Position numbers and translations under genes: made by a program
Notes under the pieces: model-generated
Seen by the model: the letters and a program-made list of their open reading frames with translations, nothing else
The model's database searches: none
What the model was told of the DNA's origin: nothing
Part shown: in pieces, positions 8,903 to 44,962 of the stretch
Position numbering within the stretch: the stretch's first letter is position 1
Layout: every line of letters starts with the position of its first letter
Origin: Candidatus Kerfeldbacteria bacterium RIFCSPHIGHO2_12_FULL_48_17
GTDB lineage: Bacteria; Patescibacteriota; Patescibacteriia; HO2-48-17
NCBI GenBank assembly: GCA_001818775.1
Contig: MHKD01000013.1
Span: 14,217 to 64,442 of the forward strand
Direction: 5' to 3'
DNA length: 50,226 nucleotides

Positions 8903-8996
8903 GAGCCGTCGCGACGGCTGTGGACAACTTTGGCCTCGACAATCACTCAAAACAGCGATACAATACCGATACCTAAACCCATCAAAAATTACTGTC
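8903..8996 (+). repeat. promoter/leader module, copy 1 of 3
   Basis: Module is GAGCCGTCGCG..CTGTGGACAACTTT..CTCGACAAT..TACAATACCGATACCTAAACCCATCAAAA. This copy has GCCGTC-GC-GACGGC as an inverted pair. Confidence 0.9.
8936..8964 (+). promoter_or_regulatory. sigma70-type promoter TCGACA-N17-TACAAT (copy 1)
   Basis: Hexamers and the 17-nt spacer were counted directly. The same architecture appears in all three module copies. Confidence 0.6.
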
Positions 8997-9410
8997 ATGA
9001 GTAAAGAGCATGTCCTTACCAAGGAATACTTTGACCAAGCCATTCAAACTTTGGCGTCGAAGGAATATGTCGATAAAGCTGTTCAAAACGTAGCCACAAA
9101 GGAATACGTTCATCAGACTATTCAGGAAAGTTTCAAAGATTTCGGTCAGGTCCTGATGAAAATTTTTGCAACCAAGGAAGAATTAAATGTGTTAAAGATA
9201 GAGCTAAAAGCAGAAATACAATCAAACAAGGAAGAGATTTTAGAGGAAATGCGTGATATGAAAGATGAAATACTCACCAGTAATGACAAGACTGTTCAAA
9301 AGATGATAAAGATAGAACAGGAACAAACGGTTACCACCCACCGCATGGATCGCATCGAAACCGAACACGGTGCGCGAATCACGACGCTGGAAGAATATGA
9401 TCGGGCATGA
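8997..9410 (+). CDS. coiled-coil protein, paralog 1
   Basis: 137 aa. It has N-terminal 11-residue (S/T)KEY repeats followed by SFKDFGQVLMKIFATKEEL, a heptad-rich middle, and the conserved C-terminus TTHRMDRIETEHGARITTLEE. Confidence 0.75.
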   Translation: MSKEHVLTKEYFDQAIQTLASKEYVDKAVQNVATKEYVHQTIQESFKDFGQVLMKIFATKEELNVLKIELKAEIQSNKEEILEEMRDMKDEILTSNDKTVQKMIKIEQEQTVTTHRMDRIETEHGARITTLEEYDRA

Positions 9411-9931: not shown

Positions 9932-10023
9932 GAGCCGTCGCGCCGTCTGTGGACAACTTTGGTCTCGACAATGACCTAAAACGGCGCTACAATACCGATA
10001 CCTAAACCCATCAAAATTTTTTT
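9932..10023 (+). repeat. promoter/leader module, copy 2 of 3
   Basis: Same module as 8903-8996. Here GCCGTC-GC-GCCGTC is a direct pair. TCGACA is at 9965-9970, then N17, then TACAAT at 9988-9993. Confidence 0.9.
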
Positions 10024-10419
10024 ATGAATGAAAATCAAGACCTCGTAACCAAAAAATATCTGCAGGAAAGTTTCAAGGACTTCGGCGAGACCCTGATGAA
10101 AATATTTGTCACAAAAGGAGAACTCAGGGATGAAATGAACAAAGTCCGCCAGGAGATGAAAAACATGAAGCAGGAATTAAAAACGGATATCTCAGTATTA
10201 GAGATAAAGCTGAGTGCTGAAATCAAATCAAGTAAGGAAAGTGTATTAAAAGATATGCATGAGATGAAAAATGAAATTCTGAACAGCAGTGATACAATAG
10301 TCAAAAAGCTGGTAACAAGAGAGGCAGAAGAAGCAGCTACCACAAACCGCATGGATCGCATCGAAACTGAACACGGTGCGCGAATCACGACGCTGGAAGA
10401 AAAAGTCTTCGAAAATTAA
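10024..10419 (+). CDS. coiled-coil protein, paralog 2
   Basis: 131 aa. N-terminus LVTKKYLQESFKDFGETLMKIFVTKGEL and C-terminus TTNRMDRIETEHGARITTLEE. Confidence 0.75.
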   Translation: MNENQDLVTKKYLQESFKDFGETLMKIFVTKGELRDEMNKVRQEMKNMKQELKTDISVLEIKLSAEIKSSKESVLKDMHEMKNEILNSSDTIVKKLVTREAEEAATTNRMDRIETEHGARITTLEEKVFEN

Positions 10420-11480: not shown

Positions 11481-11589
11481 GAGCCGTCGCGCCGTCATCG
11501 TCCTCTGTGAGGGCTGTGGACAACTTTAACCTCGACAATGACGCAAAACAGCGATACAATACCGATACCTAAACCCATCAAAATATTTT
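11481..11589 (+). repeat. promoter/leader module, copy 3 of 3
   Basis: Same module, with an extra stretch of about 20 nt after the GCCGTC pair. TCGACA is at 11532-11537, then N17, then TACAAT at 11555-11560. Confidence 0.9.
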
Positions 11590-11994
11590 ATGAACGAAAG
11601 CCAAGATCTGGTAACCAAAAAATATCTGCAGGAAAGTTTCAAGGACTTCGGCGAGACGCTGATGAAAATTTTTGTTACGAAAGACGAACTCAAGGAAACA
11701 CGTCAAGAATTAAAGAAAGAAATTCGAGCCAATAAGAAAGATGTAAACATAGTAAAAGCTGATCTGAATATCGTAAAATTAGAAATTCAGGAGATGAGGC
11801 AAGAAAATCGGTCGGCGAAAGATGAAATTCTTAGAAGCAACGCGAAGCTCTTAAAGAGTAATGATAATATCACAAAATTGATATTGAGGGGCGAAGCTGA
11901 GCGGGCCGCAACGACGCACCGTATGGATCGCATCGAATCGGATTTTGGTCCGCGCATCACCGTGCTCGAAGAAGCGCATAAGCAGTGCAACTAA
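11590..11994 (+). CDS. coiled-coil protein, paralog 3
   Basis: 134 aa. The N-terminus matches paralog 2 from LVTKKYLQ through IFVTK, and the C-terminus is TTHRMDRIESDFGPRITVLEE. Confidence 0.75.
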   Translation: MNESQDLVTKKYLQESFKDFGETLMKIFVTKDELKETRQELKKEIRANKKDVNIVKADLNIVKLEIQEMRQENRSAKDEILRSNAKLLKSNDNITKLILRGEAERAATTHRMDRIESDFGPRITVLEEAHKQCN

Positions 11995-21329: not shown

Positions 21330-24125
21330 ATGTCGGGTACCAACATTCTTGATCCCAAACAAAATCACAATCCCGTATTTCATGAATGTAAAACATGCAA
21401 TGGGTATGGTTTTTTGCTGTACGGAAGCGGAAAAACCACAATCTGCACGCGCTGCGGCGGGAAAAAAAGTTTACTCGGCGTTTACGGCGGCAGAGTTTTG
21501 TACTGGGGCCGTCTCTTGAGCGACACGACACTTTTCGAAGAAAAAATCGTACGCGGAATAAAACGGATCCGTATCGGTATTCTCATCAGTTTTGCCGCGC
21601 TCGGCGTTATTATGGCGGTGAGTGAATTTTGGCGCATCAGCAAAACCAGTTTTGATCTGACCGAACTCCTGACCAACCGAAGTTTTGAACTCGCGATTTT
21701 TTACACGTCACTTCTGGCCGATATTTATGTCTGGTACCTGCTCAACCTCACGAGGATTATCCGCCACCCGCTGCCATGGCGGAGTCACCGACCCGAAGAC
21801 GTCCTGCAGCTGGGCGGCATTCGCACGTGGGAAGAAGCCATGAGCGCACCAGAAAAAACACAGGCCGATGTTTCACAGTATCTCAACCAGGAAGCGGAAC
21901 GCATCATTGATGCTTCCTACGATATAGCCAAACAATACCACCATGTTGCTCTGGAACCGGCGCATCTGCTGGTGGTGTTGCTGCCAACCAAAGAAGTGCG
22001 TCTCATTTTCGGCCGGCTGGGTCTGCCGGCAAAACCCTTTATTGATCGTTTACAGCGCGTTCTCGCCCGAATGATAAGTGGCCAGGGAAACCCGCACATC
22101 AGTCATGCGTGGCAGCAAGCAATGATTACGGCGTACCAGGAAGCGTTCGAAGCGCAGCGCGATCAGATTACCCTGCTTGATGTGCTTATTGGCGCCGTGA
22201 AATCGGATCGAATGCTCTACGAAATATTTTTCGATCTGGAAGTTGATATCGCCAAACTCAAGCACGTTGCTGAATGGATTCAGACGCAGCGGAAAATGGT
22301 GGAGCGGTTGCAAAAGTGGCAGGCCGAAGCATCGCTCAAACCGAAAAAAACCATGAACCGTGCCCTGACGGCAAAACTCACCCCGGCACTGGACAGCATG
22401 AGTCAGGACTGGACGATCATGGCCCGCGGCAGTAATTTTTATCCTTTGATCGGGCGCAAAAAAGAAATGGAAGAATTGCTGCGCGCATTGCAGGAGGAAG
22501 GTGGGAGCGCGCTGATTGTCGGGCCATCCGGAAGCGGGAAGTCGGCGTTGATTCAGGGGTTGTCGGAAAAAATGGCGGCTGAGTTTGTGCCGTCAAGCCT
22601 GCAGGATAAGCGCCTGGTCGCCATGGATGTGGGCTCGATGGTGGCCAGCGCCGGTGGGGTGGGTGCGGCCGAAGGGAGACTGCTTCAGGCTATGAATGAA
22701 ATTAACGCAGCCGGGAATATTATTTTGGTGATAGAAGATATTGATTCCATGTTCACGGCGGTTGGGGGAGCGGCCCGTGAAACGGCGAACATGCTGCTCA
22801 AATATATTTCCCAGGGTTTTATCAAAGTGATCGCCACGGCTACGACGGAAAATTACCAGCGCTATTTGCAAAACAATACCAGCCTGGTGCGGCGTTTCAA
22901 ACGCGTTGTGCTCGAAGAAACTGATTTTGACGAATCCATGCGCGTGTTGCAATCACGAACCGGCATTTTCGAATACCGACACAAGGCGTATTTTTCCTAT
23001 GATGCTCTCGAAAAAGCCATTCATTTGACGGCCAAATATATTCATGATCGTTACCTGCCGGAAAAAGCCATTGATGTGCTGGAGCAGGCCTGTATTTATG
23101 CCAGTGAAACGCGCGGTGAAAATACGATTGTGAGCGGTGAAGATATTGCTCAGATTATCGCCCAGCGCACCAATATTCCGGTCACCAAAATCACGGAAGA
23201 AGAAAGTCATAAGTTGCTCAACCTTGAGGATCAGATTCATGAGCGCATGATTGATCAGGTCGAAGCGGTGCAGGCCGTGGCGTCAGCTTTGCGCCGGGCC
23301 CGCGGTGAACTGCGCGATGAAACCAAACCAATCGCCAACTTTCTGTTTCTGGGTCCAACCGGTGTTGGTAAAACCGAATTAGCCAAAACCGTGGCCGAAA
23401 GTTATTTTGGCGATGAGCGCAGTATGGTGCGTATTGATATGTCCGAATACCAGGATAAGGCCAGCATTTACCGGTTGATCGGCGCTCCGGCCGGGTCTGG
23501 TGGAGAATCAGGTGGTTATCTGACCGAGGCGATCAGGCAGACACCGTTTACGTTGTTGCTGCTTGATGAACTGGAAAAAGCACACCCAGATATTTTGAAT
23601 ATATTTTTGCAGGTTATGGACGATGGCCGTTTGACGGACGCATTGGGTCGCACGATTGATTTTACGCAGACGATTATTGTGGCTACATCAAATGCCGGCT
23701 CACAGATGATTCAGGAAGGTATGCGAAAAGGGGCAACCGTAGAGCGGATAAAAGAACAGCTCATGGAAGAGGAGCTGCAGAAATACTATCGTCCGGAATT
23801 TTTGAACCGTTTTGATGCGATTGTGGTGTTTAAGCCGTTGTCGCCGGATGATATTTTCGAAATTGCGAAGTTGATGCTCAAGCGCATTAGCAAATCACTG
23901 GAAAAGAAAGGTATGCAGTTTCGGGCTGCTGATGAAGCCGTTCGGGAGCTAGCGAAGATTGGGTATGATCCCAAGTTTGGCGCACGGCCGATGCGGCGCG
24001 TGATTCAAAATTCGGTGGAAGATGCGTTGGCGAAATTGTTACTGACACAAAAAATCGGCAGGCGCGATACGGTGCTGCTGGAAGCCGGCGGGAAATTGCG
24101 AATTGAAAAGGCGGAAGTGTTATAA
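21330..24125 (+). CDS. Clp/Hsp100-family AAA+ ATPase with N-terminal zinc finger and TM anchor
   Basis: Two CxxCxGxG-type motifs (CKTCNGYG, CTRCGGKK) and two hydrophobic helices precede Clp_N-like repeats. D1 has Walker A GPSGSGKS. D2 has GPTGVGKTELAK, LLLLDELEKAH and GARPMRR. Confidence 0.85.
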   Translation: MSGTNILDPKQNHNPVFHECKTCNGYGFLLYGSGKTTICTRCGGKKSLLGVYGGRVLYWGRLLSDTTLFEEKIVRGIKRIRIGILISFAALGVIMAVSEFWRISKTSFDLTELLTNRSFELAIFYTSLLADIYVWYLLNLTRIIRHPLPWRSHRPEDVLQLGGIRTWEEAMSAPEKTQADVSQYLNQEAERIIDASYDIAKQYHHVALEPAHLLVVLLPTKEVRLIFGRLGLPAKPFIDRLQRVLARMISGQGNPHISHAWQQAMITAYQEAFEAQRDQITLLDVLIGAVKSDRMLYEIFFDLEVDIAKLKHVAEWIQTQRKMVERLQKWQAEASLKPKKTMNRALTAKLTPALDSMSQDWTIMARGSNFYPLIGRKKEMEELLRALQEEGGSALIVGPSGSGKSALIQGLSEKMAAEFVPSSLQDKRLVAMDVGSMVASAGGVGAAEGRLLQAMNEINAAGNIILVIEDIDSMFTAVGGAARETANMLLKYISQGFIKVIATATTENYQRYLQNNTSLVRRFKRVVLEETDFDESMRVLQSRTGIFEYRHKAYFSYDALEKAIHLTAKYIHDRYLPEKAIDVLEQACIYASETRGENTIVSGEDIAQIIAQRTNIPVTKITEEESHKLLNLEDQIHERMIDQVEAVQAVASALRRARGELRDETKPIANFLFLGPTGVGKTELAKTVAESYFGDERSMVRIDMSEYQDKASIYRLIGAPAGSGGESGGYLTEAIRQTPFTLLLLDELEKAHPDILNIFLQVMDDGRLTDALGRTIDFTQTIIVATSNAGSQMIQEGMRKGATVERIKEQLMEEELQKYYRPEFLNRFDAIVVFKPLSPDDIFEIAKLMLKRISKSLEKKGMQFRAADEAVRELAKIGYDPKFGARPMRRVIQNSVEDALAKLLLTQKIGRRDTVLLEAGGKLRIEKAEVL

Positions 24126-24205
24126 AAGTGTGGGGTACGAAATTTTGTCTCGTCTTGCGTATGCCACACGCGTTCGACAAAATTTGTCCCACACACTTTT
24201 TTTTA
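24124..24205 (+). terminator. long-stem rho-independent terminator
   Basis: An imperfect stem of about 22 bp pairs AAAAGTGTGGGGTACGAAATTTTGTC with GACAAAATTTGTCCCACACACTTTT, followed by a T8 run. Confidence 0.7.
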
Positions 24206-24223: not shown

Positions 24224-24307
24224 GCAGCCTCATCTGCGCAATTCGCATGTCAGCATCCCGACGTCCGTCGGTCTAGCCGAGCCTAGCAAGTCAAGTGAGC
24301 TTCCTCA
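24224..24307. repeat. 84-bp inverted repeat, left copy
   Basis: It is the reverse complement of 32680-32763, with 72/84 identical positions and no gaps by hand alignment. The central palindrome is CCGACGTCCGTCGG. Confidence 0.9.
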
Positions 24308-24356
24308 GAAACATATAAACAAACCCCACGTAAATCTTTCCGAAAAGGTACTACTT

Positions 24357-25511
24357 TCAAACTTTTATTTTCTGCAATTTTTCATACTCCGCCAGCGTCT
24401 GCTGGGCGCAGAGTTTCCAGGAAAAAAGCGAGACGCGTCGGTAACCAGCCTGGTGCAGGCGTTCACGCATTTCCTTATTCGTCACCATACTGCGCATACG
24501 TTTTGACCAGGAAAAAATATCTTCCGGGTGCACGAGGGTTGCCGCACCGCCCGTAATTTCCCTCACTACCGGAATGTCCGATGCAATTACCGGCGTACCC
24601 ACCGCCATCGCTTCGAGATTGCCAAGCCCAAAACCTTCCCACAAAGACGGAAAAACAAATGCCGCCGCTTCACGCAACAAAATATTTTTTTCCTGCGCTG
24701 AAATATAGCCGGGCAAAATAATAAAACGCGCATAACGACTGTGACGGGCGGCTGCTACAATTTCCGCGGAACGATAACCGGGTCGACCGGCCAGCACGAG
24801 TTTCAGTTCACGCCAGGCCGATGGGGTATCATCCATAGCTTTCTCGAAGGCGGCGATCAGGCGCAGTAAATTTTTTCGCGGCTCCAGTGTTCCAATGAAG
24901 AGAAAAAATTTTTCCCGGCGCAGCTGAAATTTTTCCATAACAGCATCGGTTTCAGCAACCGTCGGAGTTTCGCGAACGGGCGACACACCTTCTTGGATGG
25001 CAGTGAGTTTGTGTCGGTACTCAGGAAAAAGATGATTCATATCATCGGCGAGCAACCACGAAACCAAAATAATTTTCGCAGCCCGGCGGAAAGAATGTGG
25101 AAAAATCAACCGCGTGCCCAGACGCTGACCCCAGGAAAAAAATTCCGGCCTCAGGTAAACACCGAGATCATGCACCGTGGTGATACTACGGCCGCGATAA
25201 AAATAGGGAATCCCCGTATTGGTCGCGTGAAAAATATCGAGCTTGAAGCGGCGCAAGACCCAGGCATAGACAAGCTGCGAATAGACCAGCGGCAAAAACC
25301 GCCTAAAGCGCGCACCGGAAATCAACACGCAGTGAACGTTGGGCGCCTTAAATTCGTCCCACACCGCACTCTTCTCATCAAAAAACAAAAAATATTCGTT
25401 CTGCCGGTCAATCGCCAGCAAATTTTTTGCCACATGAAAAATATAGTGGGGGACGCCGGCGCCGCCACTTTCCGGAGAGTACATAATTCGACAATCGATT
25501 CCGATACGCAT
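24357..25511 (-). CDS. GT4-family glycosyltransferase
   Basis: MRIGIDCR is a typical GT4 start; the longer ORF begins at a GTG at 25592. EGFGLGNLEAMAVGTPVI is present. It is a paralog of the gene at the window start. Confidence 0.85.
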   Translation of the reverse strand: MRIGIDCRIMYSPESGGAGVPHYIFHVAKNLLAIDRQNEYFLFFDEKSAVWDEFKAPNVHCVLISGARFRRFLPLVYSQLVYAWVLRRFKLDIFHATNTGIPYFYRGRSITTVHDLGVYLRPEFFSWGQRLGTRLIFPHSFRRAAKIILVSWLLADDMNHLFPEYRHKLTAIQEGVSPVRETPTVAETDAVMEKFQLRREKFFLFIGTLEPRKNLLRLIAAFEKAMDDTPSAWRELKLVLAGRPGYRSAEIVAAARHSRYARFIILPGYISAQEKNILLREAAAFVFPSLWEGFGLGNLEAMAVGTPVIASDIPVVREITGGAATLVHPEDIFSWSKRMRSMVTNKEMRERLHQAGYRRVSLFSWKLCAQQTLAEYEKLQKIKV

Positions 25512-25612: not shown

Positions 25613-25681
25613 GACCTGAGGATATATCTTTTTCTTGCTCCGGACTCCGCCGGGACTACGAAAAAGACATATCCTCAGGTC
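25613..25681. repeat. hairpin element H1 (22-bp stem, 25-nt loop)
   Basis: The stem (25613-25634 pairing with 25660-25681) has one A:C mismatch. The loop TTGCTCCGGACTCCGCCGGGACTAC is shared with H2. Confidence 0.9.
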
Positions 25682-25927
25682 GGCAAGCGTACAAGTTTGA
25701 CATACAAAGCCCAATATGGTTAAGTTGATGGTTATTTATTTAGGGTTTGTCGCCGAATACGCTTTCGTGACGAAATCATGGAATTTTGTGACAGAATTGC
25801 TGAATAAATTTTGAGGTTTATATGGAATATAAGCCGAAAAATTTTGAAGCGGTTCTGGCCAAAATTCAATGATTGCAGTAGAAATGGTATTCGGCGACAG
25901 ACCCATTTAACCGTCCTCCACGCAACT

Positions 25928-26839
25928 ATGACACAATTCCGCCGCATAACCGATATCATTGCTGACCACTGGAAAATGGTGATCCTGCTTATGATTCTCT
26001 TCATTGGCGGCAGCCTTGGCCTGACCTTCATTCATCCTTTTGAATACCAGTCCAGCGCGCGCATTCTCGTTGTGCCGGTGCAGGAGGAAACCTATGACCC
26101 ATTCACGGCTGAAAAGGCCAGCGAACGGCTCGGCAACACCTTTGGTCAGATTATTACGACTTCCAGTTTTCAGGAAAAGGTTTTGGCTTCCAGCGCACAG
26201 GATCTGAAAAACAACAAATTCAGCCAGGATCCACTCAAAAAACGCAAGCAGTGGCGTGACAAAATCAGCACCCAACTCGAGCGCGAAACCGGTGTTTTGA
26301 CGATTAATGTCTATGATGCCGACCCCAAATACGCCCAACGCCTGCTGGAATGGATTGTGTATAGCCTGAATAGCGATTCCGGCGAATACCATGGCGGCGG
26401 TGATAAGGTGTGGGTGGTGACGGTGGATTTTCCGGTGACGAGCGAAAGTCCGGTGCGCCCGAATATTATTTTGAATCTGACTTTGGGGGTTTTGAGCGCT
26501 TTGGCGGCGATTGCTTTGTTTATTACCTGGTACTATTTCCGGCCGGAATACCTGCCGGCTGCGGTGGGTGAGCAGGGGTCAATGGGTGAAACTGTCGGGC
26601 TTGGGGCTGAACCGGAACCGGTTGCTGCTGAGTCGGTCGTGGCGGCTGTCAAGGCTGGTGAAGGATTGGAGCAGATTGCTGATTTGGAGGTGGCGCCAGC
26701 TTCGGCACCGGCGTCGGTGGACAGCGATTACAACACTCCAGTCGAGAACAGTCAAGAAAATTACGGTCAACATCAGGCGCAATTTAATGACGATTACTAC
26801 GCGCAGGCCATTCAGCAGCTCAAACAGAAGCAGGTCTAG
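25928..26839 (+). CDS. Wzz-like polysaccharide chain-length determinant / co-polymerase family protein
   Basis: An N-terminal TM is followed by FEYQSSARILVVP, an extracytoplasmic region, and a second TM (ILNLTLGVLSALAAIALFITWYYF). The acidic tail is low-complexity. Confidence 0.55.
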   Translation: MTQFRRITDIIADHWKMVILLMILFIGGSLGLTFIHPFEYQSSARILVVPVQEETYDPFTAEKASERLGNTFGQIITTSSFQEKVLASSAQDLKNNKFSQDPLKKRKQWRDKISTQLERETGVLTINVYDADPKYAQRLLEWIVYSLNSDSGEYHGGGDKVWVVTVDFPVTSESPVRPNIILNLTLGVLSALAAIALFITWYYFRPEYLPAAVGEQGSMGETVGLGAEPEPVAAESVVAAVKAGEGLEQIADLEVAPASAPASVDSDYNTPVENSQENYGQHQAQFNDDYYAQAIQQLKQKQV

Positions 26840-27034
26840 GGTAGGTGAGCGGTGGTTGATGCAGGGTCCCGCGCAGGTTGACAGATGAAAATAAATATGG
26901 TCGCACACAAATCGGCGGCCATTTTTTATTGACAAACAGGTGTAGAATTGGTAAGACAGAGGGTTCGACGAAATCATTTCGCGAACAAAAAATTTTTGCA
27001 AATTGAAAATCTAAAATTAAGGAGGGCGAAGCCC

Positions 27035-28198
27035 ATGAAACACTTGAATTTGAAAAGCATTGCCGCTGCAGTCGTCCTCTTGCTCGTCGCCCTTTCCTGG
27101 GTGAACGAAGTAAGGGGACAGGATTTGGAAATTTCCGAGACGCCGGTAGAGGAGGTAAACAAAGAGTACATCCTTGTACTCAATATCATCATTACTTTCC
27201 GGCAGCCCGATGGAACGGACCTCTCAATTGAACCAGGTGCGGAAATTCAGGTCCGGATCGTTGAAGTTGATAACCTTGGTGTGACCTATGAATTAGAAAG
27301 GGCCAGCCAGGGTGGAATATTGCAGGAACCGGCTGAAAGGACTCGGCCATTTTTCCGGATCATGAATGCGGAGAGGGTGGAAAGAATATTTTCGCTTAAA
27401 CTGTTGCCTGATGCTGGGAATTGGTCAAAATACCAACCACTTCGCGACGAAACCACGCCCGAGATTGATCCAATCGACGTAATGTTTCTCTTCATATACG
27501 ATCATATTGCTTATTCAAAAAAGGCAAAGGAAGAGGGCAGAAACGTTGAAAATAACCCAGACTGGCTGGCTGTGGCAGCAAAGGTGCGCTTGAATATATG
27601 CGCCAGCTGCCGCTACAAAAAAAGTTTCAGCCCGAGTGTCCTATTCAAAGCAGGAAATTCCTGGCTAAACGTGGACCCTAATTATTTCGCAACAGGGGGT
27701 CCGGATTTTCAACTGGGGCTTGGGTTCAACTGGCAGAGATGGTTTTTCAACAGCATCTATGGTGACGTGACTGCTGGTCCAAAAATTCTCAGAAATAGTA
27801 CTTTGGATCAGGACATTACCTGGATGCTGGATGGTGACATCAGCTTCTCACTGTGGGGAATGTGGTTTGCTTACTATTTTTCCGGCGAAGGACTGGAAAG
27901 AGGTTTGCCGAACCGCTATATGGAAATTGATATAAAACATCAATTCCATCCGCAGTGGTTCGACTGGTTTGCCGCAAGCCTGGGTTTTGGGATCGGAAAA
28001 ACAGATTATGAGATAGGAGATGTGGCCTACGGGTATTGGAAGTTCATACCTTTTGTGGAGCTCAGTGCTTTCACAACTGGAGATGAGCTTGTGCCTAAGC
28101 AGCACAGTCTCCGATTCAATTTCAGCTTGTTGAAGGCAGGGAACATCGGCGGTCTGTATGGAAAAAGCTACACCGCCATCCTGGTTTTCAACTTCTGA
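27035..28198 (+). CDS. secreted hypothetical protein with beta-barrel-like C-terminal half
   Basis: AAGGAGGG lies upstream of the ATG. The signal peptide is MKHLNLKSIAAAVVLLLVALSWVNEVRG. The C-terminal ~200 aa are aromatic-rich with an alternating pattern, and the protein ends in ...TAILVFNF. Confidence 0.6.
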   Translation: MKHLNLKSIAAAVVLLLVALSWVNEVRGQDLEISETPVEEVNKEYILVLNIIITFRQPDGTDLSIEPGAEIQVRIVEVDNLGVTYELERASQGGILQEPAERTRPFFRIMNAERVERIFSLKLLPDAGNWSKYQPLRDETTPEIDPIDVMFLFIYDHIAYSKKAKEEGRNVENNPDWLAVAAKVRLNICASCRYKKSFSPSVLFKAGNSWLNVDPNYFATGGPDFQLGLGFNWQRWFFNSIYGDVTAGPKILRNSTLDQDITWMLDGDISFSLWGMWFAYYFSGEGLERGLPNRYMEIDIKHQFHPQWFDWFAASLGFGIGKTDYEIGDVAYGYWKFIPFVELSAFTTGDELVPKQHSLRFNFSLLKAGNIGGLYGKSYTAILVFNF

Positions 28199-28300
28199 AA
28201 ATGCCTCACAAGGGGGTACAAAAAAACCGGCATTGCACAAGCAGTGCCAACAACAACCAAACCAAGCGCCCTAACAGGCGCCAAAGAACTGGAGATTATC

Positions 28301-29560
28301 ATGAGAAAGATTTTTTTTGCAGTATTTATGATCTTGCTGACAGTGTGGGCGATAGGATGTACCGACCATGTGCCGATTAAAGAAGGTGTCACGCCAAATC
28401 CAAATGGAGGTGGTCTTGTTGACGTTCACCTTGGGTATTCCACAGCAAATTGTCAAACACTTCGCTATTACCACACCCTACTGCCGATGTCGGAACAAAA
28501 TGTCGGCACAAAAGGCCCGGAGAAATGGAAACTCGAAAGCATCGCGGTTTCGGCCCTCGGAACAACGGGCGAAATCCTATTTTCAGGACTTGAGGCCAAT
28601 GTTGAGGATCATGGATTCTGGCCAAATTGTCTTGTTGATGGCAGTTTTGACCATGTGCCAAGCACAAGTTCAGATGGGCAGGTCCTCGATCAATTCACTT
28701 GCGATACGGGTGCCTGTAAGTATAAATTTGATGTTCTCTCAGATAGCATTCGGCAGGAGAATGGACCAGAAACTATGTTTGTCGACAATGAAGTGGTTCT
28801 GGATCCACAGGGACAACTCCAGGCCCCCTATGCTGTCGTCTTGACACTGTCAATGCACGACATCATCAAGACCCCGGCGGATGGAAACACAGGCAGATAT
28901 AAACGCTCAATAAAGTTCCCAACCCGGTCAAAGGGTTATGCGTGGTGTGCCGGTAGTAATAGTTATAATAGCTTCCTCTGTCGGATAACTATAGGGGGCG
29001 TACTGCTAACAAAAAAAGTACCAAAACCAACGAACCCCTTGATTCCGAACGTGGGCCTGTTACCATTCGCACCCACAGAAGTTTACGAATATGAAATCGA
29101 TGCCACGGGAAAGCAGGTTTCAACTCAGGGAAGTCAAAATGTCACCTTAGTCTGGCGTCAGGACGCTGTAAATAAGTATGTACAAAGCGACGGTATTTAT
29201 TTTAAAAATAACTTAAATGCCAATAAAACGGATCAAAATACAGCGGCTGAGTTTCAGACAAGTGACAGTGGGAGTCTGAAAATAGGTGACTTCAAAAAAA
29301 CATTCTCCAATCTTCCTGATGGTGTGGGTTATAAACTCAGCACGGGAAAGTTGGTTAATAGCGTATTCTACGGGGTCAATGGCAGCGACTTACGTTTTGG
29401 GATGATAGGAACGTCGGGAGCTCTCATCCAGTTGACTTGCATAACTGGAACGAAAGAAAATTCCGATGGGAGCATCTATAGTGAGTTCGAGTTCGATGTT
29501 ATGAGCGGTGAAGTAATTTCACCATGTAATAATATCGGGGTAGATGCTAAATTAAAGTAA
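28301..29560 (+). CDS. putative lipoprotein, Cys-rich, no recognisable domain
   Basis: GGAG lies upstream. MRKIFFAVFMILLTVWAIGC resembles a lipobox. The mature part has multiple Cys residues. Confidence 0.6.
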   Translation: MRKIFFAVFMILLTVWAIGCTDHVPIKEGVTPNPNGGGLVDVHLGYSTANCQTLRYYHTLLPMSEQNVGTKGPEKWKLESIAVSALGTTGEILFSGLEANVEDHGFWPNCLVDGSFDHVPSTSSDGQVLDQFTCDTGACKYKFDVLSDSIRQENGPETMFVDNEVVLDPQGQLQAPYAVVLTLSMHDIIKTPADGNTGRYKRSIKFPTRSKGYAWCAGSNSYNSFLCRITIGGVLLTKKVPKPTNPLIPNVGLLPFAPTEVYEYEIDATGKQVSTQGSQNVTLVWRQDAVNKYVQSDGIYFKNNLNANKTDQNTAAEFQTSDSGSLKIGDFKKTFSNLPDGVGYKLSTGKLVNSVFYGVNGSDLRFGMIGTSGALIQLTCITGTKENSDGSIYSEFEFDVMSGEVISPCNNIGVDAKLK

Positions 29561-29647
29561 CATTGCGCGCAACTGCGCGCCATAGCTCATTGAATTGGAA
29601 CGCAGTTGCTCATGCAATTTCGTTCCTTTTCAATTCAGGAGAAAATC

Positions 29648-30814
29648 ATGAAAAAAGTAATGCTCGCAGTTGCGATAATGATAGGAACATTGATTCCTGC
29701 GTTGAAGGCACAGGCATTTGAATTGGATCAAGAGAAGTTTTTCCAGATGGTTGAAGATCCAAATTTCACTATCGAAAATTGTGTGCAAGTGGCGGCGAAC
29801 ACTGTTGCGGCTGGTGAAAATAACAATACGTCAGGGTTCACGTCAGAGGAAATAGTGGAAATTGAGAAAGAGTGTAAAAAGCTCAAAAATTTTCAGAAAG
29901 AGATTGTCGCAGAAAAGGCGCTCTTAAAAGAGGAGAATCCGGCGCTGTATGAGTCTATTCCTTGTATATACAACCGCTGGAAAGCCTTTACTGAGTATGG
30001 TATCGAAGATAAACACTGGGACCCTGAGGATGCAGTCAGGTTGGGTCCGGGAGCGGACAGGGTTTGGCGGATTATTGTGCTCAGGGAAAAATCAAACAGC
30101 ATATATCAAAAATTATTGAACCTCGATCCCGATGGTGAAATCTGCCGGTATATATTCACCTTTCAGCAGTCGGTAAGCTGTCCACCAACCAGACCACCGA
30201 CCTATGTCCGTCCGCCGGAACCGCCGCCACAACGGGTTTCAGAGCCAATACCTCGCCCCATGGAAATGGTCACGACATCGGCAGTGGAAACGCAGAGTGC
30301 TTTTTGTCCCTGTATGTGGGTGTTTGATGCCAATGGGACGAAACGTTCCAAGGAACAAAAATACATAGAATGCTACAACTGGAGTATATTACCCAGCGGG
30401 GTAACCCTTGCTGATATTGAGGATGTCTGGCTGGTGGGTGATTTCAATCACTGGGTGGATGCCAAAGATCGCAACCCACCAACATTGAAAAAACTCAAAA
30501 GCTGGCGCTTCCGAAAATACCGCATACCACGGATGAGTGAGGATGGGGTCGCGACTTTCAGCAGCGATAACAGGAAGGGGCGAAAATTTATAAAAGCCAT
30601 GACGCACATCAAAGAAAGCCGCTGGTTGTTTGTGTTCGAACTCAAGAATGGTACCACCCGATGGGCTTCGCTGGATAACTTCGCATTCGACGACGAACGA
30701 TCATGGGCGTGCGGTGTTTTTCAGCAGGAAAGTGGAGCGGTCATGTCCCTCTACACGAAGACATGGCAAACCACCAGCCGCCACCGCATCAGCGCCATGG
30801 AAATGGGCGAGTAA
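29648..30814 (+). CDS. secreted hypothetical protein with Pro-rich linker and possible carbohydrate-binding C-terminal module
   Basis: AGGAG lies upstream. The signal peptide is MKKVMLAVAIMIGTLIPALKAQA and the linker is PPTRPPTYVRPPEPPPQRVSEPIPRP. VWLVGDFNHW resembles the GxFNxW signature of CBM48/E-set modules; this is unverified. Confidence 0.6.
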   Translation: MKKVMLAVAIMIGTLIPALKAQAFELDQEKFFQMVEDPNFTIENCVQVAANTVAAGENNNTSGFTSEEIVEIEKECKKLKNFQKEIVAEKALLKEENPALYESIPCIYNRWKAFTEYGIEDKHWDPEDAVRLGPGADRVWRIIVLREKSNSIYQKLLNLDPDGEICRYIFTFQQSVSCPPTRPPTYVRPPEPPPQRVSEPIPRPMEMVTTSAVETQSAFCPCMWVFDANGTKRSKEQKYIECYNWSILPSGVTLADIEDVWLVGDFNHWVDAKDRNPPTLKKLKSWRFRKYRIPRMSEDGVATFSSDNRKGRKFIKAMTHIKESRWLFVFELKNGTTRWASLDNFAFDDERSWACGVFQQESGAVMSLYTKTWQTTSRHRISAMEMGE

Positions 30815-30985
30815 CGGCCCCAACGAAAAACCAAAACCGCGGCCCCTACCTACCAGGCGCCGCAACCGCGATAGAAAGGAGATTGAACCTTAAACAGACC
30901 GGGAAGCAGAATGTCGACAAGAACCCCAGCTTGACATTTTGCCCCCGGTTTGTTTTTTTATGGAAATCATGTAAGATGAGCAGTT

Positions 30986-32569
30986 ATGTCAAATTTGACC
31001 ACCCAAACGCTGTCCCAGACAGCCACAACCACCACCCCAATCCCATTTTTTCAGCAGAAAATAGGCCTTTTTTCGGCACTCGGTGCCATTGCCACCATCT
31101 TCGCCCTTGGCATCATCTTCTCACCAGCCCTGGCTTTTGGCCTGGTCGCCGCCATCGCCCTGGCCATAACCGCCTTCCGCAAGCCCCTCTGGCTCGTCAC
31201 CGGCCTGCTCTGGTACATGCCCCTTGAACCCTTCCTCCTCAAATTCATCCCCAGCGATTTTTACCTCTACATCCGCTTCGGCAGTGAAGCTGTTATTTAC
31301 CTCATCGTCATCGCCCTGCTCTGGAAATTCATCAGCCGCCAACTGAAATGGCAACTCACCGCCTTCGACATGATCTTCGCCGCATTGCTCGGCACCATGC
31401 TGGTAGGTACCCTCCTGCACTGGACCAGCCTCGAAGTCACCCTGCTTGGCTGGCGCGGCATCCTGCGTTTCATGGTTTTATATTATGTCATTCTTTATCT
31501 GCGTCCAACGCGTCAGCAAATACTTATCGCCATGAGCGGTCTGGCTCTGCTCCTGCTCGGCGAAAGCCTCCTCGGCTTGACGCAGTGGCTGAGTGGCGGT
31601 CGACTCGACGCCTTCCTCGCGCCCAGTCAGCAGCAATTTTTTGGCGACATCACCATCACTATCGGCACGACACTGGATTGGGGTGAAGGTCAGCGCGTAT
31701 TCGGCACCCTCGGAAAATATGAACAACTCGGCAGCTGGCTGATGATGGGATTATTTTTTGTCATCGCAACTTTATACGAATACCAAGGCCCGCGCAAACG
31801 CTGGTTGTGGGTTTTGTTCGCAGTCGGACTCGTTACACTTGTTCTGACCTATTCGCGCGCGGCCTGGTTTGGTTGGGTACTTGGCGCCATCATCATGAGC
31901 TTTATCATCAAGCGTCACAAAAAAGTTTTCTTTATCACCTTAGGTGCACTGGCCGCACTCTTCCTCTATAAAGAATTTAGTGGCCTGGTCGTTGACACGC
32001 TGCTGGCCCGACCGTATACCAATGTTGGTATTCTCGAACGTTTGTTTGAAGTTTTTTCTTACGAACGCTGGCGTGGTGAATATTTTGGATTGGGTCGTTT
32101 GTATTTTTTGGTCGAAGTGCCACGCAAAGTCATTCCTTTGAGTCCGATTTTTGGTTTTGGTCCGGGGCAGTTCGGCAGTGGTGCTGCAGCGGCATTGCAC
32201 AACACGGCCATTTACAACCTGGCCAATATTCCTTTTGGAATTTGGGGACAGTTCGGGTTTATTGATAATAACTGGCTGAGTTTGTGGGCGGAAGTGGGCA
32301 CGCTGGGATTGCTGTTATATGTGGCTTTGCTGGTCTGGCTGCTGCGTGTGACCGTGAAGGTGTACCGACAAACAAAATTCTTGGTGACACGCGTATTGGC
32401 ATTTGGATATATTGCGGTGATTTTTAGTGTGAGTTTTATTGCGTTGTTGGCGACGTATCTGGAAATGCGCACATTGGGTTTGTATTTCTGGATCCTGGGC
32501 GGCGTGATCGTGAGCCTGGCGCTGCAGGAAGGAATTATTAAACCCTTTAAAAAGGATAAAACCTCGTGA
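30986..32569 (+). CDS. O-antigen ligase / Wzy-like polymerase family membrane protein
   Basis: A 527-aa polytopic protein with an LTYSRAAWFGWVLG-type loop motif typical of the Wzy_C family. Confidence 0.65.
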   Translation: MSNLTTQTLSQTATTTTPIPFFQQKIGLFSALGAIATIFALGIIFSPALAFGLVAAIALAITAFRKPLWLVTGLLWYMPLEPFLLKFIPSDFYLYIRFGSEAVIYLIVIALLWKFISRQLKWQLTAFDMIFAALLGTMLVGTLLHWTSLEVTLLGWRGILRFMVLYYVILYLRPTRQQILIAMSGLALLLLGESLLGLTQWLSGGRLDAFLAPSQQQFFGDITITIGTTLDWGEGQRVFGTLGKYEQLGSWLMMGLFFVIATLYEYQGPRKRWLWVLFAVGLVTLVLTYSRAAWFGWVLGAIIMSFIIKRHKKVFFITLGALAALFLYKEFSGLVVDTLLARPYTNVGILERLFEVFSYERWRGEYFGLGRLYFLVEVPRKVIPLSPIFGFGPGQFGSGAAAALHNTAIYNLANIPFGIWGQFGFIDNNWLSLWAEVGTLGLLLYVALLVWLLRVTVKVYRQTKFLVTRVLAFGYIAVIFSVSFIALLATYLEMRTLGLYFWILGGVIVSLALQEGIIKPFKKDKTS

Positions 32570-32638
32570 GCCGAAGGAGGTATACTTTTTTGTGCTCCGG
32601 ACTCCGCCGGGACTACAAAAAAGCACACCTCCTCCGGC
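32570..32638. repeat. hairpin element H2 (22-bp stem, 25-nt loop)
   Basis: The stem (32570-32591 pairing with 32617-32638) has three A:C mismatches. The loop GTGCTCCGGACTCCGCCGGGACTAC shares 24 nt with H1. Confidence 0.9.
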
Positions 32639-32679
32639 TAAAATTAATGCAATCAGTAATGTTTATTTCGTTATGCCTT

Positions 32680-32763
32680 TGAGGAAGCTCACTTGGCTTG
32701 CCGGGCTTGGTCAGCCCGACGGACGTCGGGATGCTGGCATGACAAGTGCGCAGCTGAGGCTGC
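32680..32763. repeat. 84-bp inverted repeat, right copy
   Basis: It is the reverse complement of 24224-24307. It is nested inside a larger hairpin closed by GTTTATTTCGTTAT (32661-32674) and ATAACGAAATAAAC (32797-32810). Confidence 0.9.
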
Positions 32764-32815
32764 CGCTGGAGCAGCCGAAAGCGTTTCCGAAAAGGTATAA
32801 CGAAATAAACGGATT

Positions 32816-44795: not shown

Positions 44796-44962
44796 TTAGT
44801 AACTGTCTCATATCTCTCTTTCGTAGCGAAAAATTGAAATTTCGAGCGAAAGAAATGAAGATTGAGGAGGAATAGTGACTACTATGCTGACGAAATCTGA
44901 ATTTTTTGCAGCCGAAATTTCAATTTTGGAGCAGAATACGGAGATATGAGACAGTTACTTAG
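44796..44962 (+). repeat. ~166-nt rod-like imperfect inverted repeat (candidate structured RNA)
   Basis: A 19-bp perfect stem (44798-44816 / 44941-44959), a 15-bp perfect stem (44830-44844 / 44913-44927), internal loops, and an apical hairpin at 44872-44885. Confidence 0.85.

What the first reader, a model, noticed from the sequence alone, without database searches (positions are those of the whole stretch)
25613..32638. Two hairpin elements with an identical 24-nt loop and diverged but still-pairing stems; all mismatches become G:U on the minus strand
H1 (25613-25681) and H2 (32570-32638) each form a 22-bp stem around a 25-nt loop. The loops share 24 nt, TGCTCCGGACTCCGCCGGGACTAC, which contains CTCCG twice and a CCGG/CCGG mini-stem. 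The stems differ in sequence (GACCTGAGGATATATCTTTTTC vs GCCGAAGGAGGTATACTTTTTT), yet both still pair with their own partner arm.

All four stem mismatches (one in H1, three in H2) have A on the 5' arm opposite C on the 3' arm of the plus strand. Read on the minus strand, these are G:U wobbles. This strand asymmetry is what a functional minus-strand RNA helix would show, and is not expected from a DNA palindrome alone.

H1 lies in the 5' region of the minus-strand GT4 gene (ATG at 25511). H2 lies just after the plus-strand Wzy-like gene and next to the right 84-bp repeat. In the minus sense, the 5' arm of each element carries an SD-like GGAGGAGG (H2) or GAGGA (H1) sequestered in the helix.
Basis: seen in the sequence. 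Interest (0 to 1): 0.66.

Follow-up and report, generated by a model that had tools for sequence, protein, structure and literature searches.

The report
Repeated hairpin with an invariant loop
The two hairpins are real and belong to a small family of about 70-nt palindromic repeats scattered between genes of one uncultivated groundwater (CPR) bacterium; they most likely are REP-like selfish or domesticated repeats that work as a single-stranded hairpin, not a regulator of the sugar-polymer genes beside them.

Summary
H1 (25613-25681) and H2 (32570-32638) are 22-bp hairpins with an identical 24-nt core, and all four stem mismatches are A:C on the plus strand.

They belong to a family. Five more copies lie on other contigs of the same Ca. 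Kerfeldbacteria population, and metagenome contig ends show at least one more (rough estimate 10-30 per genome). None was found in 185,579 reference genomes or in IMG/VR.

Across copies the 25-nt apex is 97% identical, while the outer arms are about 40% identical, no better than the flanks. Every intact stem still pairs. 18 of 22 pairs show double changes, and all 13 mismatches in seven intact copies are G:U (G:T) on the minus strand only.

Copies sit beside unrelated housekeeping genes, usually between a stop codon and a separate canonical terminator. They occur in either orientation to transcription, with no U-tract, no target duplication and no Rfam match. The wobble polarity therefore belongs to the element, not to the transcribed strand.

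Best reading (0.5): a REP-like non-autonomous repeat recognised or copied as a minus-polarity single strand, where the core reads GTAG plus a short imperfect palindrome. The SD-sequestering riboregulator idea is not supported. No transposase, empty site or RNA data could be obtained.

The parts
25613..25681 (-). H1: family member in the divergent gap between the GT4 gene (ATG 25511, minus) and Wzz (plus). It has a 22-bp stem and a 25-nt apex. Strand '-' marks the polarity on which all pairs are standard or wobble.
   Evidence: I3; 93.7 bits on minus vs 40.7 on plus
32570..32638 (-). H2: family member that starts at the base after the TGA stop (32567-32569) of the 527-aa membrane-protein gene. 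It lies 22 nt before repeat B.
   Evidence: I4; 84.6 bits on minus vs 32.3 on plus
25628..25666 (.). Invariant apex module of H1: inner helix CTTTTTC/GAAAAAG plus the 24-nt core TGCTCCGGACTCCGCCGGGACTAC. On minus the core reads GTAG-TCCCGG-CGGAGT-CCGGAG-CA, a mini-helix with a hexaloop.
   Evidence: D1; apex 0.97 pairwise identity
32585..32623 (.). Invariant apex module of H2 (inner helix CTTTTTT/AAAAAAG plus the same 24-nt core).
   Evidence: (D1)
25626..25626 (-). H1 position of the family-wide conserved wobble: A25626 opposite C25668 on plus, which is G.U on minus, 9 bp below the apex.
   Evidence: mismatch at inner-to-outer position 7-9 in all seven intact copies
32582..32584 (-). H2 wobble positions A32582 and A32584 (opposite C32626 and C32624). 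A third lies at A32574 opposite C32634.

Best explanation
H1 and H2 are two members of a lineage-restricted family of about 70-nt palindromic intergenic repeats in a Candidatus Kerfeldbacteria (CPR/Patescibacteria) genome.

Shown:
- Each copy is a 22-bp stem capped by an essentially invariant 39-nt apex.
- The outer arms have diverged about as far as the unrelated flanks, yet always pair.
- Every mismatch is a wobble on one fixed polarity, the window's minus strand.
- Copies lie in non-coding gaps beside unrelated genes, usually between a stop codon and a separate canonical terminator.
- They occur in both orientations to transcription and often abut other repeats (MITE C, element B).

Inferred:
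- The element is a REP-like, non-autonomous (selfish or domesticated) repeat whose active form is a single-stranded hairpin of minus polarity. ssDNA is the more likely form, as for HUH/Y1 enzymes such as RAYTs and IS200/IS605 TnpA. An RNA copy is not excluded.
- The invariant apex is the module that a trans-acting protein reads. On the minus strand it reads GTAG followed by a short imperfect palindrome with a C.A mismatch.
- The conserved G.T/G.U is a second determinant or a tolerated irregularity.
- The rest of the stem only has to pair, so it drifts by compensatory change, or by intrastrand templated correction.
- When read through by RNA polymerase in either orientation it also forms a very stable 3'-UTR hairpin (-35 to -50 kcal/mol). 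This probably protects or marks mRNA 3' ends as a side effect.
For: Family and restriction:
- The 20-mer core was found on five other contigs of one IMG sample. Their flanks occur in the same groundwater runs at the same depth as the window.
- It is absent from GTDB representative genomes apart from one chance archaeal hit and from IMG/VR.
- It is absent upstream of rpoB in relatives with 84% and 77% RpoB identity.
- 24 Logan contigs of run X1 touch the core.

Constraint pattern:
- Pairwise identity is 0.97 for the apex, 0.81-0.86 for the inner helix and 0.38-0.40 for the outer arms, against 0.41-0.45 for the flanks.
- 18 of 22 stem pairs carry double changes, 95.4% of cells pair (all failures come from the decayed L005 copy), and 0/500 shuffles reach the observed values.

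Polarity:
- 13 of 13 mismatches are A:C on plus.
- The minus fold is more stable in 6 of 6 copies by 4.7-12.6 kcal/mol.
- The covariance model scores minus 85-96 bits against 32-41 bits for plus.

Polarity is independent of transcription: stop codon, then H, then canonical terminator in plus sense at L003 and L004 and in minus sense at L006. Tandem genes give plus sense at H2 and minus sense at L002 and L005.

Repeat-like behaviour:
- Neighbouring genes are unrelated.
- The stop codon of the L003 gene lies inside the arm.
- H clusters with other repeats: H1 is 62 nt from MITE C, H2 is 22 nt from B, and the L005 copy is 43 nt from B.
- One copy (L005) is decayed.

Precedent: RAYTs and IS200/IS605 TnpA bind folded ssDNA strand-specifically, using GTAG, loop bases and conserved stem mismatches (PMC8266576). 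REPIN hairpins show compensatory changes (PMC3116915).
Against: - No transposase, RAYT or reverse transcriptase was seen in about 130 kb examined. The rest of the genome could not be searched.
- No empty site or excision joint was found in related strains (coverage was low).
- There is no target-site duplication.
- The architecture is the inverse of REP/REPIN/MITE, which have conserved arms and a variable centre.
- GTAG here lies inside the loop, and its last G is predicted to pair.
- Copy number is low for a REP family.
- Orientation relative to the majority gene direction (a weak proxy for replication) is mixed. Strict lagging-strand ssDNA transposition would not predict this.
- Only about 5 of the 13 wobbles are clearly independent events. 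Conservatively the polarity statistic is p about 0.06, rather than 2e-4.
Confidence: 0.5

Rival explanations
1. One reading: a functional minus-strand RNA helix, acting as a cis-regulator or sRNA that sequesters an SD-like sequence and controls the neighbouring glycosyltransferase and polysaccharide genes.
For: All mismatches are G:U on minus and the minus fold is more stable. There is a conserved wobble and strong covariation. H1 would lie in the 5' leader of the minus-strand GT4 gene. The minus-sense loop carries two CGGAG motifs.
Against: - H2 is antisense to its operon.
- L003 and L004 lie beyond a canonical bidirectional terminator for any minus-sense transcript.
- The SD-like arm sequence is absent in L004, L002 and L006.
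- Neighbouring genes are functionally unrelated.
- No promoter-like flank is conserved.
- There is no Rfam family.
- No RNA data exist to show minus-strand expression.
Confidence: 0.15
2. A host-beneficial RNA hairpin that works in either orientation. It would sit in 3' UTRs or operon gaps as an exonuclease block, an RNase III site, or a docking site for an RNA-binding protein that reads the apex. It would be analogous to what REP/BIME and ERIC do for mRNA stability.
For: Six of seven copies lie just downstream of a gene's stop codon, and three lie between the stop and the gene's own terminator. The hairpins are extremely stable on both strands (z -5.9 to -8.2). The invariant apex implies sequence-specific recognition. 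Canonical terminators are separate, so H is an additional element.
Against: An RNA acting in both orientations presents two different, complementary loop sequences, so one protein could not read both. It also does not explain why wobbles occur on one polarity only, irrespective of which strand is transcribed. H1 lies at no 3' end.
Confidence: 0.2
3. A duplex-DNA site for a recombinase or regulator. The core is a 6-bp asymmetric centre (ACTCCG) between imperfect 16-17-bp inverted arms, like a dif/lox-type site. H1 and H2 are direct repeats around the 6.9-kb Wzz...membrane-protein segment, so they could allow its deletion or exchange.
For: H1 and H2 have the same orientation and bracket five co-oriented polysaccharide genes. 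A XerA-type tyrosine recombinase gene ends 129 nt from the L002 copy. Related strains lack coverage of part of the bracketed segment (X4 depth 0 at about 31.5-32.4 kb).
Against: - A duplex site needs neither 15 extra base pairs of covarying arm nor a strand-specific wobble pattern.
- Ten or more active sites in both orientations would scramble a genome of about 1 Mb.
- No deletion or inversion joint between H1 and H2 was seen in four metagenomes.
- The recombinase scores as the housekeeping XerA type.
Confidence: 0.07
4. Inert, decaying palindromic debris. On this view the perfect pairing is kept by non-selective intrastrand template switching (quasipalindrome correction), and the one-sided wobble polarity is inherited from a common ancestor plus chance.
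For: Only about five wobble events are clearly independent, giving p about 0.06. One copy (L005) has lost an arm. The family is confined to one lineage.
Against: Neutral decay cannot keep 24-25 nt at 97-100% identity while the arms reach flank-level divergence. Nor can it keep one wobble at the same position in all seven intact copies while its neighbours covary.
Confidence: 0.08

Closest known systems
REP / BIME elements and REPINs with their RAYT (TnpA-REP) enzymes
   Same: - Short extragenic palindromes repeated within one genome, often between a stop codon and a terminator, in both orientations and clustered with other repeats.
- Hairpin kept by compensatory changes (PMC3116915).
- Recognition of one strand only as a folded single strand, using GTAG, loop bases and a conserved stem irregularity (PMC8266576).
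- H has GTAG at the 5' edge of its invariant core on the wobble-tolerant strand, and a conserved stem wobble.
   Different: - The conservation pattern is inverted. In REP/REPIN the arms are conserved and the spacer varies, whereas in H the apex is invariant and the arms vary.
- H is longer (69 nt, 22-bp stem).
- Copy number is tens, not hundreds.
- No RAYT gene was found in the DNA available.
- There is no sequence similarity to any described REP.
ERIC/IRU and Correia/NEMIS-type transcribed palindromic repeats
   Same: Imperfect palindromes in transcribed intergenic regions, inserted in either orientation. They form long RNA hairpins that affect mRNA processing or stability, and structure is maintained across copies.
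   Different: ERIC (about 127 bp) and Correia elements (about 100-150 bp) have conserved termini, and Correia elements have TA duplications. H has no terminal conservation and no duplication. Those families are known from Proteobacteria, not CPR (statement from general knowledge).
MITEs (for example element C beside H1)
   Same: Small, non-coding, repeated, palindromic and intergenic.
   Different: MITEs have conserved terminal inverted repeats and target-site duplications. C shows both (TIR GGGTYTGTCGCCGAATAC, 5-bp ATTTA duplication). H shows neither: its termini are its least conserved part.
Integron attC sites and other folded-ssDNA recombination sites
   Same: Structure is conserved rather than sequence in the stem. 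They function on one strand only, and they lie after genes.
   Different: attC conserves the outer R''/R' boxes (…AAC / GTT…) and extrahelical bases, and varies at the apex. H is the opposite and lacks these boxes. There is no integron integrase and no cassette array.
Intrinsic (Rho-independent) terminators
   Same: Stable hairpin just downstream of genes.
   Different: H has no U-tract on either strand. Canonical GC-stem plus T-run terminators lie separately next to H in L003, L004 and L006.

Membership tests
REP / REPIN (RAYT-associated) | Conserved GTAG/GTGG tetranucleotide immediately 5' of an imperfect palindrome, on the recognised strand (PMC8266576) | tested here: inconclusive
   On minus the invariant core starts GTAG and continues TCCCGG-CGGAGT-CCGGAG, six 'pairs' including U.G and a C.A mismatch. 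However, it sits inside a larger hairpin's loop, and the last G of GTAG is predicted to pair.
REP / REPIN (RAYT-associated) | Conserved palindrome arms, with the spacer or loop less conserved (PMC3116915) | tested here: not met
   Apex 0.97 identity against outer arms 0.38-0.40.
REP / REPIN (RAYT-associated) | A single-copy RAYT (Y1 HUH) gene in the same genome, usually flanked by the repeats | not testable with these tools
   None among the genes of about 130 kb examined.
REP / REPIN (RAYT-associated) | High extragenic copy number within one genome | tested here: inconclusive
   All copies are extragenic: 7 were sequenced, at least 1 more comes from contig ends, and 24 contigs touch the core in run X1. 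That is tens in a genome assumed to be about 1 Mb, as is typical for CPR (general knowledge, not measured here), not hundreds.
MITE | Conserved terminal inverted repeats | tested here: not met
   The termini are the most variable part.
MITE | Target-site duplication | tested here: not met
   No direct repeat flanks any of the 7 copies. The neighbouring element C does have one.
Integron attC | R''/R' core sites (RYYYAAC...GTTRRRY), extrahelical bases, variable apex | tested here: not met
   The arm ends are GACC/GGTC, GCCG/CGGC, GGGC/GCCC and similar. The stems have no bulges, and the apex is invariant.
Intrinsic terminator | GC-rich stem followed by a U-tract | tested here: not met
   No T-run follows H on either strand. 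Separate canonical terminators lie adjacent.
Any Rfam family | Score at or above the family's gathering threshold | tested here: not met
   There were 0 hits at gathering over the window. Only generic miRNA-precursor hairpin models appeared, far below threshold.
Structured cis-regulatory RNA on the minus strand | Consistent orientation relative to the regulated gene, and association with a gene class | tested here: not met
   Three copies are plus-sense, three are minus-sense and one is divergent. The neighbouring genes are unrelated.

The most novel reading that the evidence does not exclude
H is the substrate of an undescribed strand-specific single-strand system in CPR bacteria, either a mobilisation system or an RNA/ssDNA-binding system. 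In it, the protein-recognition module sits at the apex of a long hairpin (GTAG plus mini-palindrome, with a fixed G.T/G.U 7-9 bp below it). The arms are free to covary. This architecture is the inverse of REP, REPIN, MITE and attC. Element B, which has the same 'constant core, variable closing stem' design, may belong to the same system.
Probability: 0.2. Interest if true: 0.6.

Novelty: new variant of a known kind. Interest (0 to 1): 0.4.

Why it matters
CPR/Patescibacteria have small genomes, which are generally thought to carry few repeats (general knowledge). Here about 100 kb of one Kerfeldbacteria genome carries three different structured repeat families.

H shows a clean, quantifiable signature: an invariant apex, arms diverged to saturation that still pair perfectly, and one-sided wobbles that do not follow the transcribed strand. 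This signature separates 'selection on a single-stranded form of fixed polarity' from 'selection on the host mRNA'.

If the partner protein were found, it would extend REP/RAYT-type biology, or a new analogue of it, to the CPR. It would also give a natural example of apex-based hairpin recognition.

For annotating this locus, the practical message is that H1 and H2 are not regulators specific to the polysaccharide cluster.

Tried and rejected
- Rfam at gathering and at permissive E-values gave only generic hairpin models.
- The exact 20-mer scan of GTDB genomes gave one chance hit in a GC-rich archaeal contig with no similar stem. IMG/VR gave none.
- Covariance model R1 found no extra or diverged copies in the window, in the +/-10 kb extensions, or in two relatives' rpoB loci.
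- A fuzzy search for the loop with up to 6 edits found nothing new.
- RNA-seq or metatranscriptome runs for this organism: none listed.
- Empty sites or excision joints in related strains: none found, but coverage was only 2-5x and Logan contigs break at the repeat.
- The cassette idea (H-gene-B as a mobile unit, suggested by H1-GT4-B on minus) was rejected. L005 and L004 do not repeat that arrangement.
- The idea that the arms are target-derived inverted duplications was rejected. Arm starts recur (RGGSTRA...), arm length is constant, and L005, L006 and two contig-end copies share about 30 nt of extra flank on one side.
- SECIS or read-through at the H2 stop codon was rejected. Read-through would add only 23 codons before a TAA (read in frame from the sequence), and the other copies are 25-130 nt from stop codons.
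- K-turn and sarcin-ricin motifs in the internal loop were rejected, because the 3' side varies (AA, AC, GC).
- The terminator and promoter consensus scan was not above the shuffle expectation.

Full report
**1. The observation**

Reading the window confirms two hairpins at the stated coordinates.
- H1 (25613-25681) has arms GACCTGAGGATATATCTTTTTC and GAAAAAGACATATCCTCAGGTC.
- H2 (32570-32638) has arms GCCGAAGGAGGTATACTTTTTT and AAAAAAGCACACCTCCTCCGGC.
- Each caps the same 24-mer, TGCTCCGGACTCCGCCGGGACTAC.

The 24-mer occurs twice in the window, both times on plus, and never in 100 shuffles even with three mismatches allowed. The shared block is 39 nt, because the inner helix CTTTTTC/GAAAAAG is shared too (D1).

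Both elements fold far better than dinucleotide shuffles on either strand (z -5.9 to -8.2). The four mismatches are all A (5' arm) opposite C (3' arm) on plus. The minus-strand folds are continuous helices and are 4.7 and 12.0 kcal/mol more stable. The one exception is 'Wzy-like': that protein is a multi-pass membrane protein without any Pfam or NCBIfam match.

**2. It is a family**

A 20-nt core was scanned through three collections.
- GTDB species representatives gave one hit, in a GC-rich archaeal contig with no comparable stem. About one hit is expected by chance.
- IMG/VR gave none.
- JGI metagenomes gave five contigs, all from one sample, Ga0155625 (L002-L006).

RpoB on L002 is 100% identical to the protein named 'Candidatus Kerfeldbacteria bacterium RIFCSPHIGHO...'. 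The flanks of the L002, L003, L004 and L006 copies turn up in the same groundwater runs as the window, at the same depth of about 10x. The window is identical to an ENA groundwater contig. So all seven copies belong to one CPR population.

Laying Logan contigs on the apex gave 24 contigs in run X1. It also gave single-contig loose ends that define at least one further complete copy (AGGGTAAGAAATATATC...GACATATTTCTTACCCT) and several further arms. Because contigs break at the 39-nt repeat, I can only estimate roughly 10-30 copies per genome.

A covariance model built from the seven copies found:
- nothing more in the window;
- nothing in 10-kb extensions on both sides;
- nothing upstream of rpoB in relatives with 84% and 77% RpoB identity.

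**3. Anatomy and evolution**

In the model-based alignment of six intact copies, mean pairwise identity is as follows:

| Region | Mean pairwise identity |
|---|---|
| 25-nt apex | 0.97 |
| Inner helix | 0.81-0.86 |
| Outer 15-nt arms | 0.38-0.40 |
| Unrelated flanks | 0.41-0.45 |

The arms are still recognisably homologous. Their starts recur (GGGCT..., AGGGT..., AGGCT...) and their length is constant at 22-23 bp.

Despite this divergence, every intact stem pairs. On the minus sense, 95.4% of cells are standard pairs, and all failures come from the decayed L005 copy. Of 22 stem pairs, 18 show changes on both sides. No shuffle out of 500 reaches any of the five measures, and sliding the partner by 1-3 columns collapses pairing to 37-53%.

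In seven intact copies there are 13 stem mismatches, and all are A:C or C:A on the loop-plus strand. That makes them G.U on minus, with none of the other transition type and no transversion mismatch. One mismatch sits at the same place, 7-9 bp below the apex, in every copy.
- If all 13 were independent, p would be about 2e-4.
- Counting only clearly independent events (about 5), p is about 0.06.
- The conserved wobble amid covarying neighbours is itself a sign of constraint.

The minus fold is more stable in 6 of 6 copies. The apical mini-helix has one wobble and one mismatch on each strand, so it gives no polarity information.

**4. Context**

Neighbouring genes are unrelated:
- GT4 and Wzz;
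- a membrane protein and a GT4;
- a XerA-type recombinase and rpoB;
- an APH-like kinase;
- dnaX and a glutamine-synthetase-like gene;
- a trxB-like gene and gdh;
- a CofE-like gene.

H has no U-tract on either strand. Canonical terminators, with a GC stem and a T-run, lie next to it:
- after H in L003 (AACCGCC-ATTTACA-GGCGGTT-ATTTTTTTT) and in L004;
- before H in L006.

H therefore sits between a stop codon and that gene's own terminator. It is plus-sense in L003 and L004, and in H2, where it begins at the base after TGA. It is minus-sense in L006, L002 and L005. H1 lies between divergent genes. In L003 the stop codon lies inside the arm.

The wobble polarity is therefore a property of the element, not of the transcribed strand. 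It does not follow the majority gene direction either, although that is only a weak proxy for replication. H has no target-site duplication. Copies cluster with other repeats.

**5. Interpretation**

The specific model is not: H is not a minus-strand RNA that masks an SD and regulates GT4/Wzy. H2 would be antisense. L003 and L004 are shielded from minus-sense transcription by terminators. The SD-like arm sequence is not conserved, and there is no association with a gene class.

The behaviour matches REP/ERIC-type intergenic palindromes. The closest mechanistic precedent is strand-specific recognition of folded ssDNA by Y1 HUH enzymes (RAYT, IS200/IS605 TnpA). These enzymes read GTAG, loop bases and a conserved stem irregularity (PMC8266576). 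REPIN hairpins likewise show compensatory changes (PMC3116915).

On minus, the invariant core reads GTAG-TCCCGG-CGGAGT-CCGGAG-CA, which is GTAG plus a short imperfect palindrome. I treat this as a lead, not as membership. The conservation pattern is inverted relative to REP/REPIN, and no RAYT could be looked for outside about 130 kb.

My best explanation (0.5) is a REP-like non-autonomous repeat. Its apex would be read by a trans-acting protein on a single strand of fixed polarity, and stable 3'-UTR hairpins would be a by-product. The rivals are:
- an orientation-independent mRNA hairpin (0.2);
- the minus-strand riboregulator (0.15);
- inert debris (0.08);
- a duplex recombination site (0.07).

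**6. Novelty and limits**

There is no Rfam match, and no literature on such repeats in CPR was found. The kind, a small extragenic palindromic repeat, is known. The architecture is a new variant: invariant apex, free arms, and one-sided wobbles uncoupled from transcription.

Missing evidence:
- a genome-wide census;
- the partner enzyme;
- empty sites;
- RNA data, of which none were available.

Noticed in passing
window 32661-32810 (+); degenerate reverse copy 24224-24315; L004 8751-8897; L005 3983-4142: Element B is a repeat of about 150 nt. It has a conserved core (…GAGGAAGCTCA…GCGCAGCTGAGGCTGCCGCTGGAGCAGCCGAAAGCGTTTCCGAAAAGG) and a closing stem that is variable but self-complementary.

It folds as a three-way junction (-75 to -87 kcal/mol, z -7.4). 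The sense strand is 10-13 kcal/mol more stable than the antisense strand.

B is always sense-oriented after a co-directional gene. In three of three intact copies it lies just upstream of the next gene: a GT4 (6 nt before the ATG), CorA and gdh.

There is no Rfam family and no IMG/VR hit.
   Followed up: partly
window 25743-25904 (flanks 25738-25742 and 25905-25909); L005 1159-1231: Element C is a 162-nt MITE. Its terminal inverted repeats (GGGTYTGTCGCCGAATAC...) are conserved, its centre is variable, and it has a 5-bp ATTTA target duplication.

Metagenome depth is very high (130-500 against about 11), and contigs show shorter centre variants.

C lies 62 nt from H1 and contains the start codons called for the Wzz gene (TTG 25811, and 25844 in the ENA gene call). 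The true Wzz start is therefore probably the ATG at 25928.
   Followed up: partly
L003 664-696; L004 (reverse strand) just 3' of H; L006 (reverse strand) about 60-120 nt 5' of H: Canonical, partly bidirectional intrinsic terminators (A-run, GC stem, T-run) exist in this CPR genome and sit beside H copies. This shows that H is not the terminator.
   Followed up: yes
window 44798-44959: A further 162-nt palindromic element lies between rmuC and the atp operon. It has perfect 19-nt outer arms (AGTAACTGTCTCATATCTC) around an inner 47-nt imperfect palindrome. No copy of it occurs in the other loci.
   Followed up: no
window 8903-9395, 9947-10130, 11514-11696: These are direct repeats, 88.6% identical over 184 nt. 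They overlap the starts of three small ORFs of unknown function (about 131-137 aa), which appear to be a local paralogue family.
   Followed up: no
window about 30000-32700: Related populations in soil and groundwater runs (X4, and partly X2/X3) give no contig coverage over parts of the membrane-protein gene, while covering neighbouring genes at 90-99% identity. The polysaccharide locus therefore looks strain-variable.
   Followed up: no
window 24124-24200: A 22-bp imperfect hairpin (AAAAGTGTGGGGTACGAAATTT ... AAAATTTGTCCCACACACTTTT) overlaps the stop codon of the 931-aa ClpB-like AAA+ gene (its first two bases are the last two of that stop codon), next to the degenerate B copy.
   Followed up: no
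L005 4147-4226: This H copy has an intact apex and one intact arm, but its other arm no longer pairs. It lies 43 nt after a B copy and about 30 nt before the gdh start. It is evidence that family members decay.
   Followed up: yes
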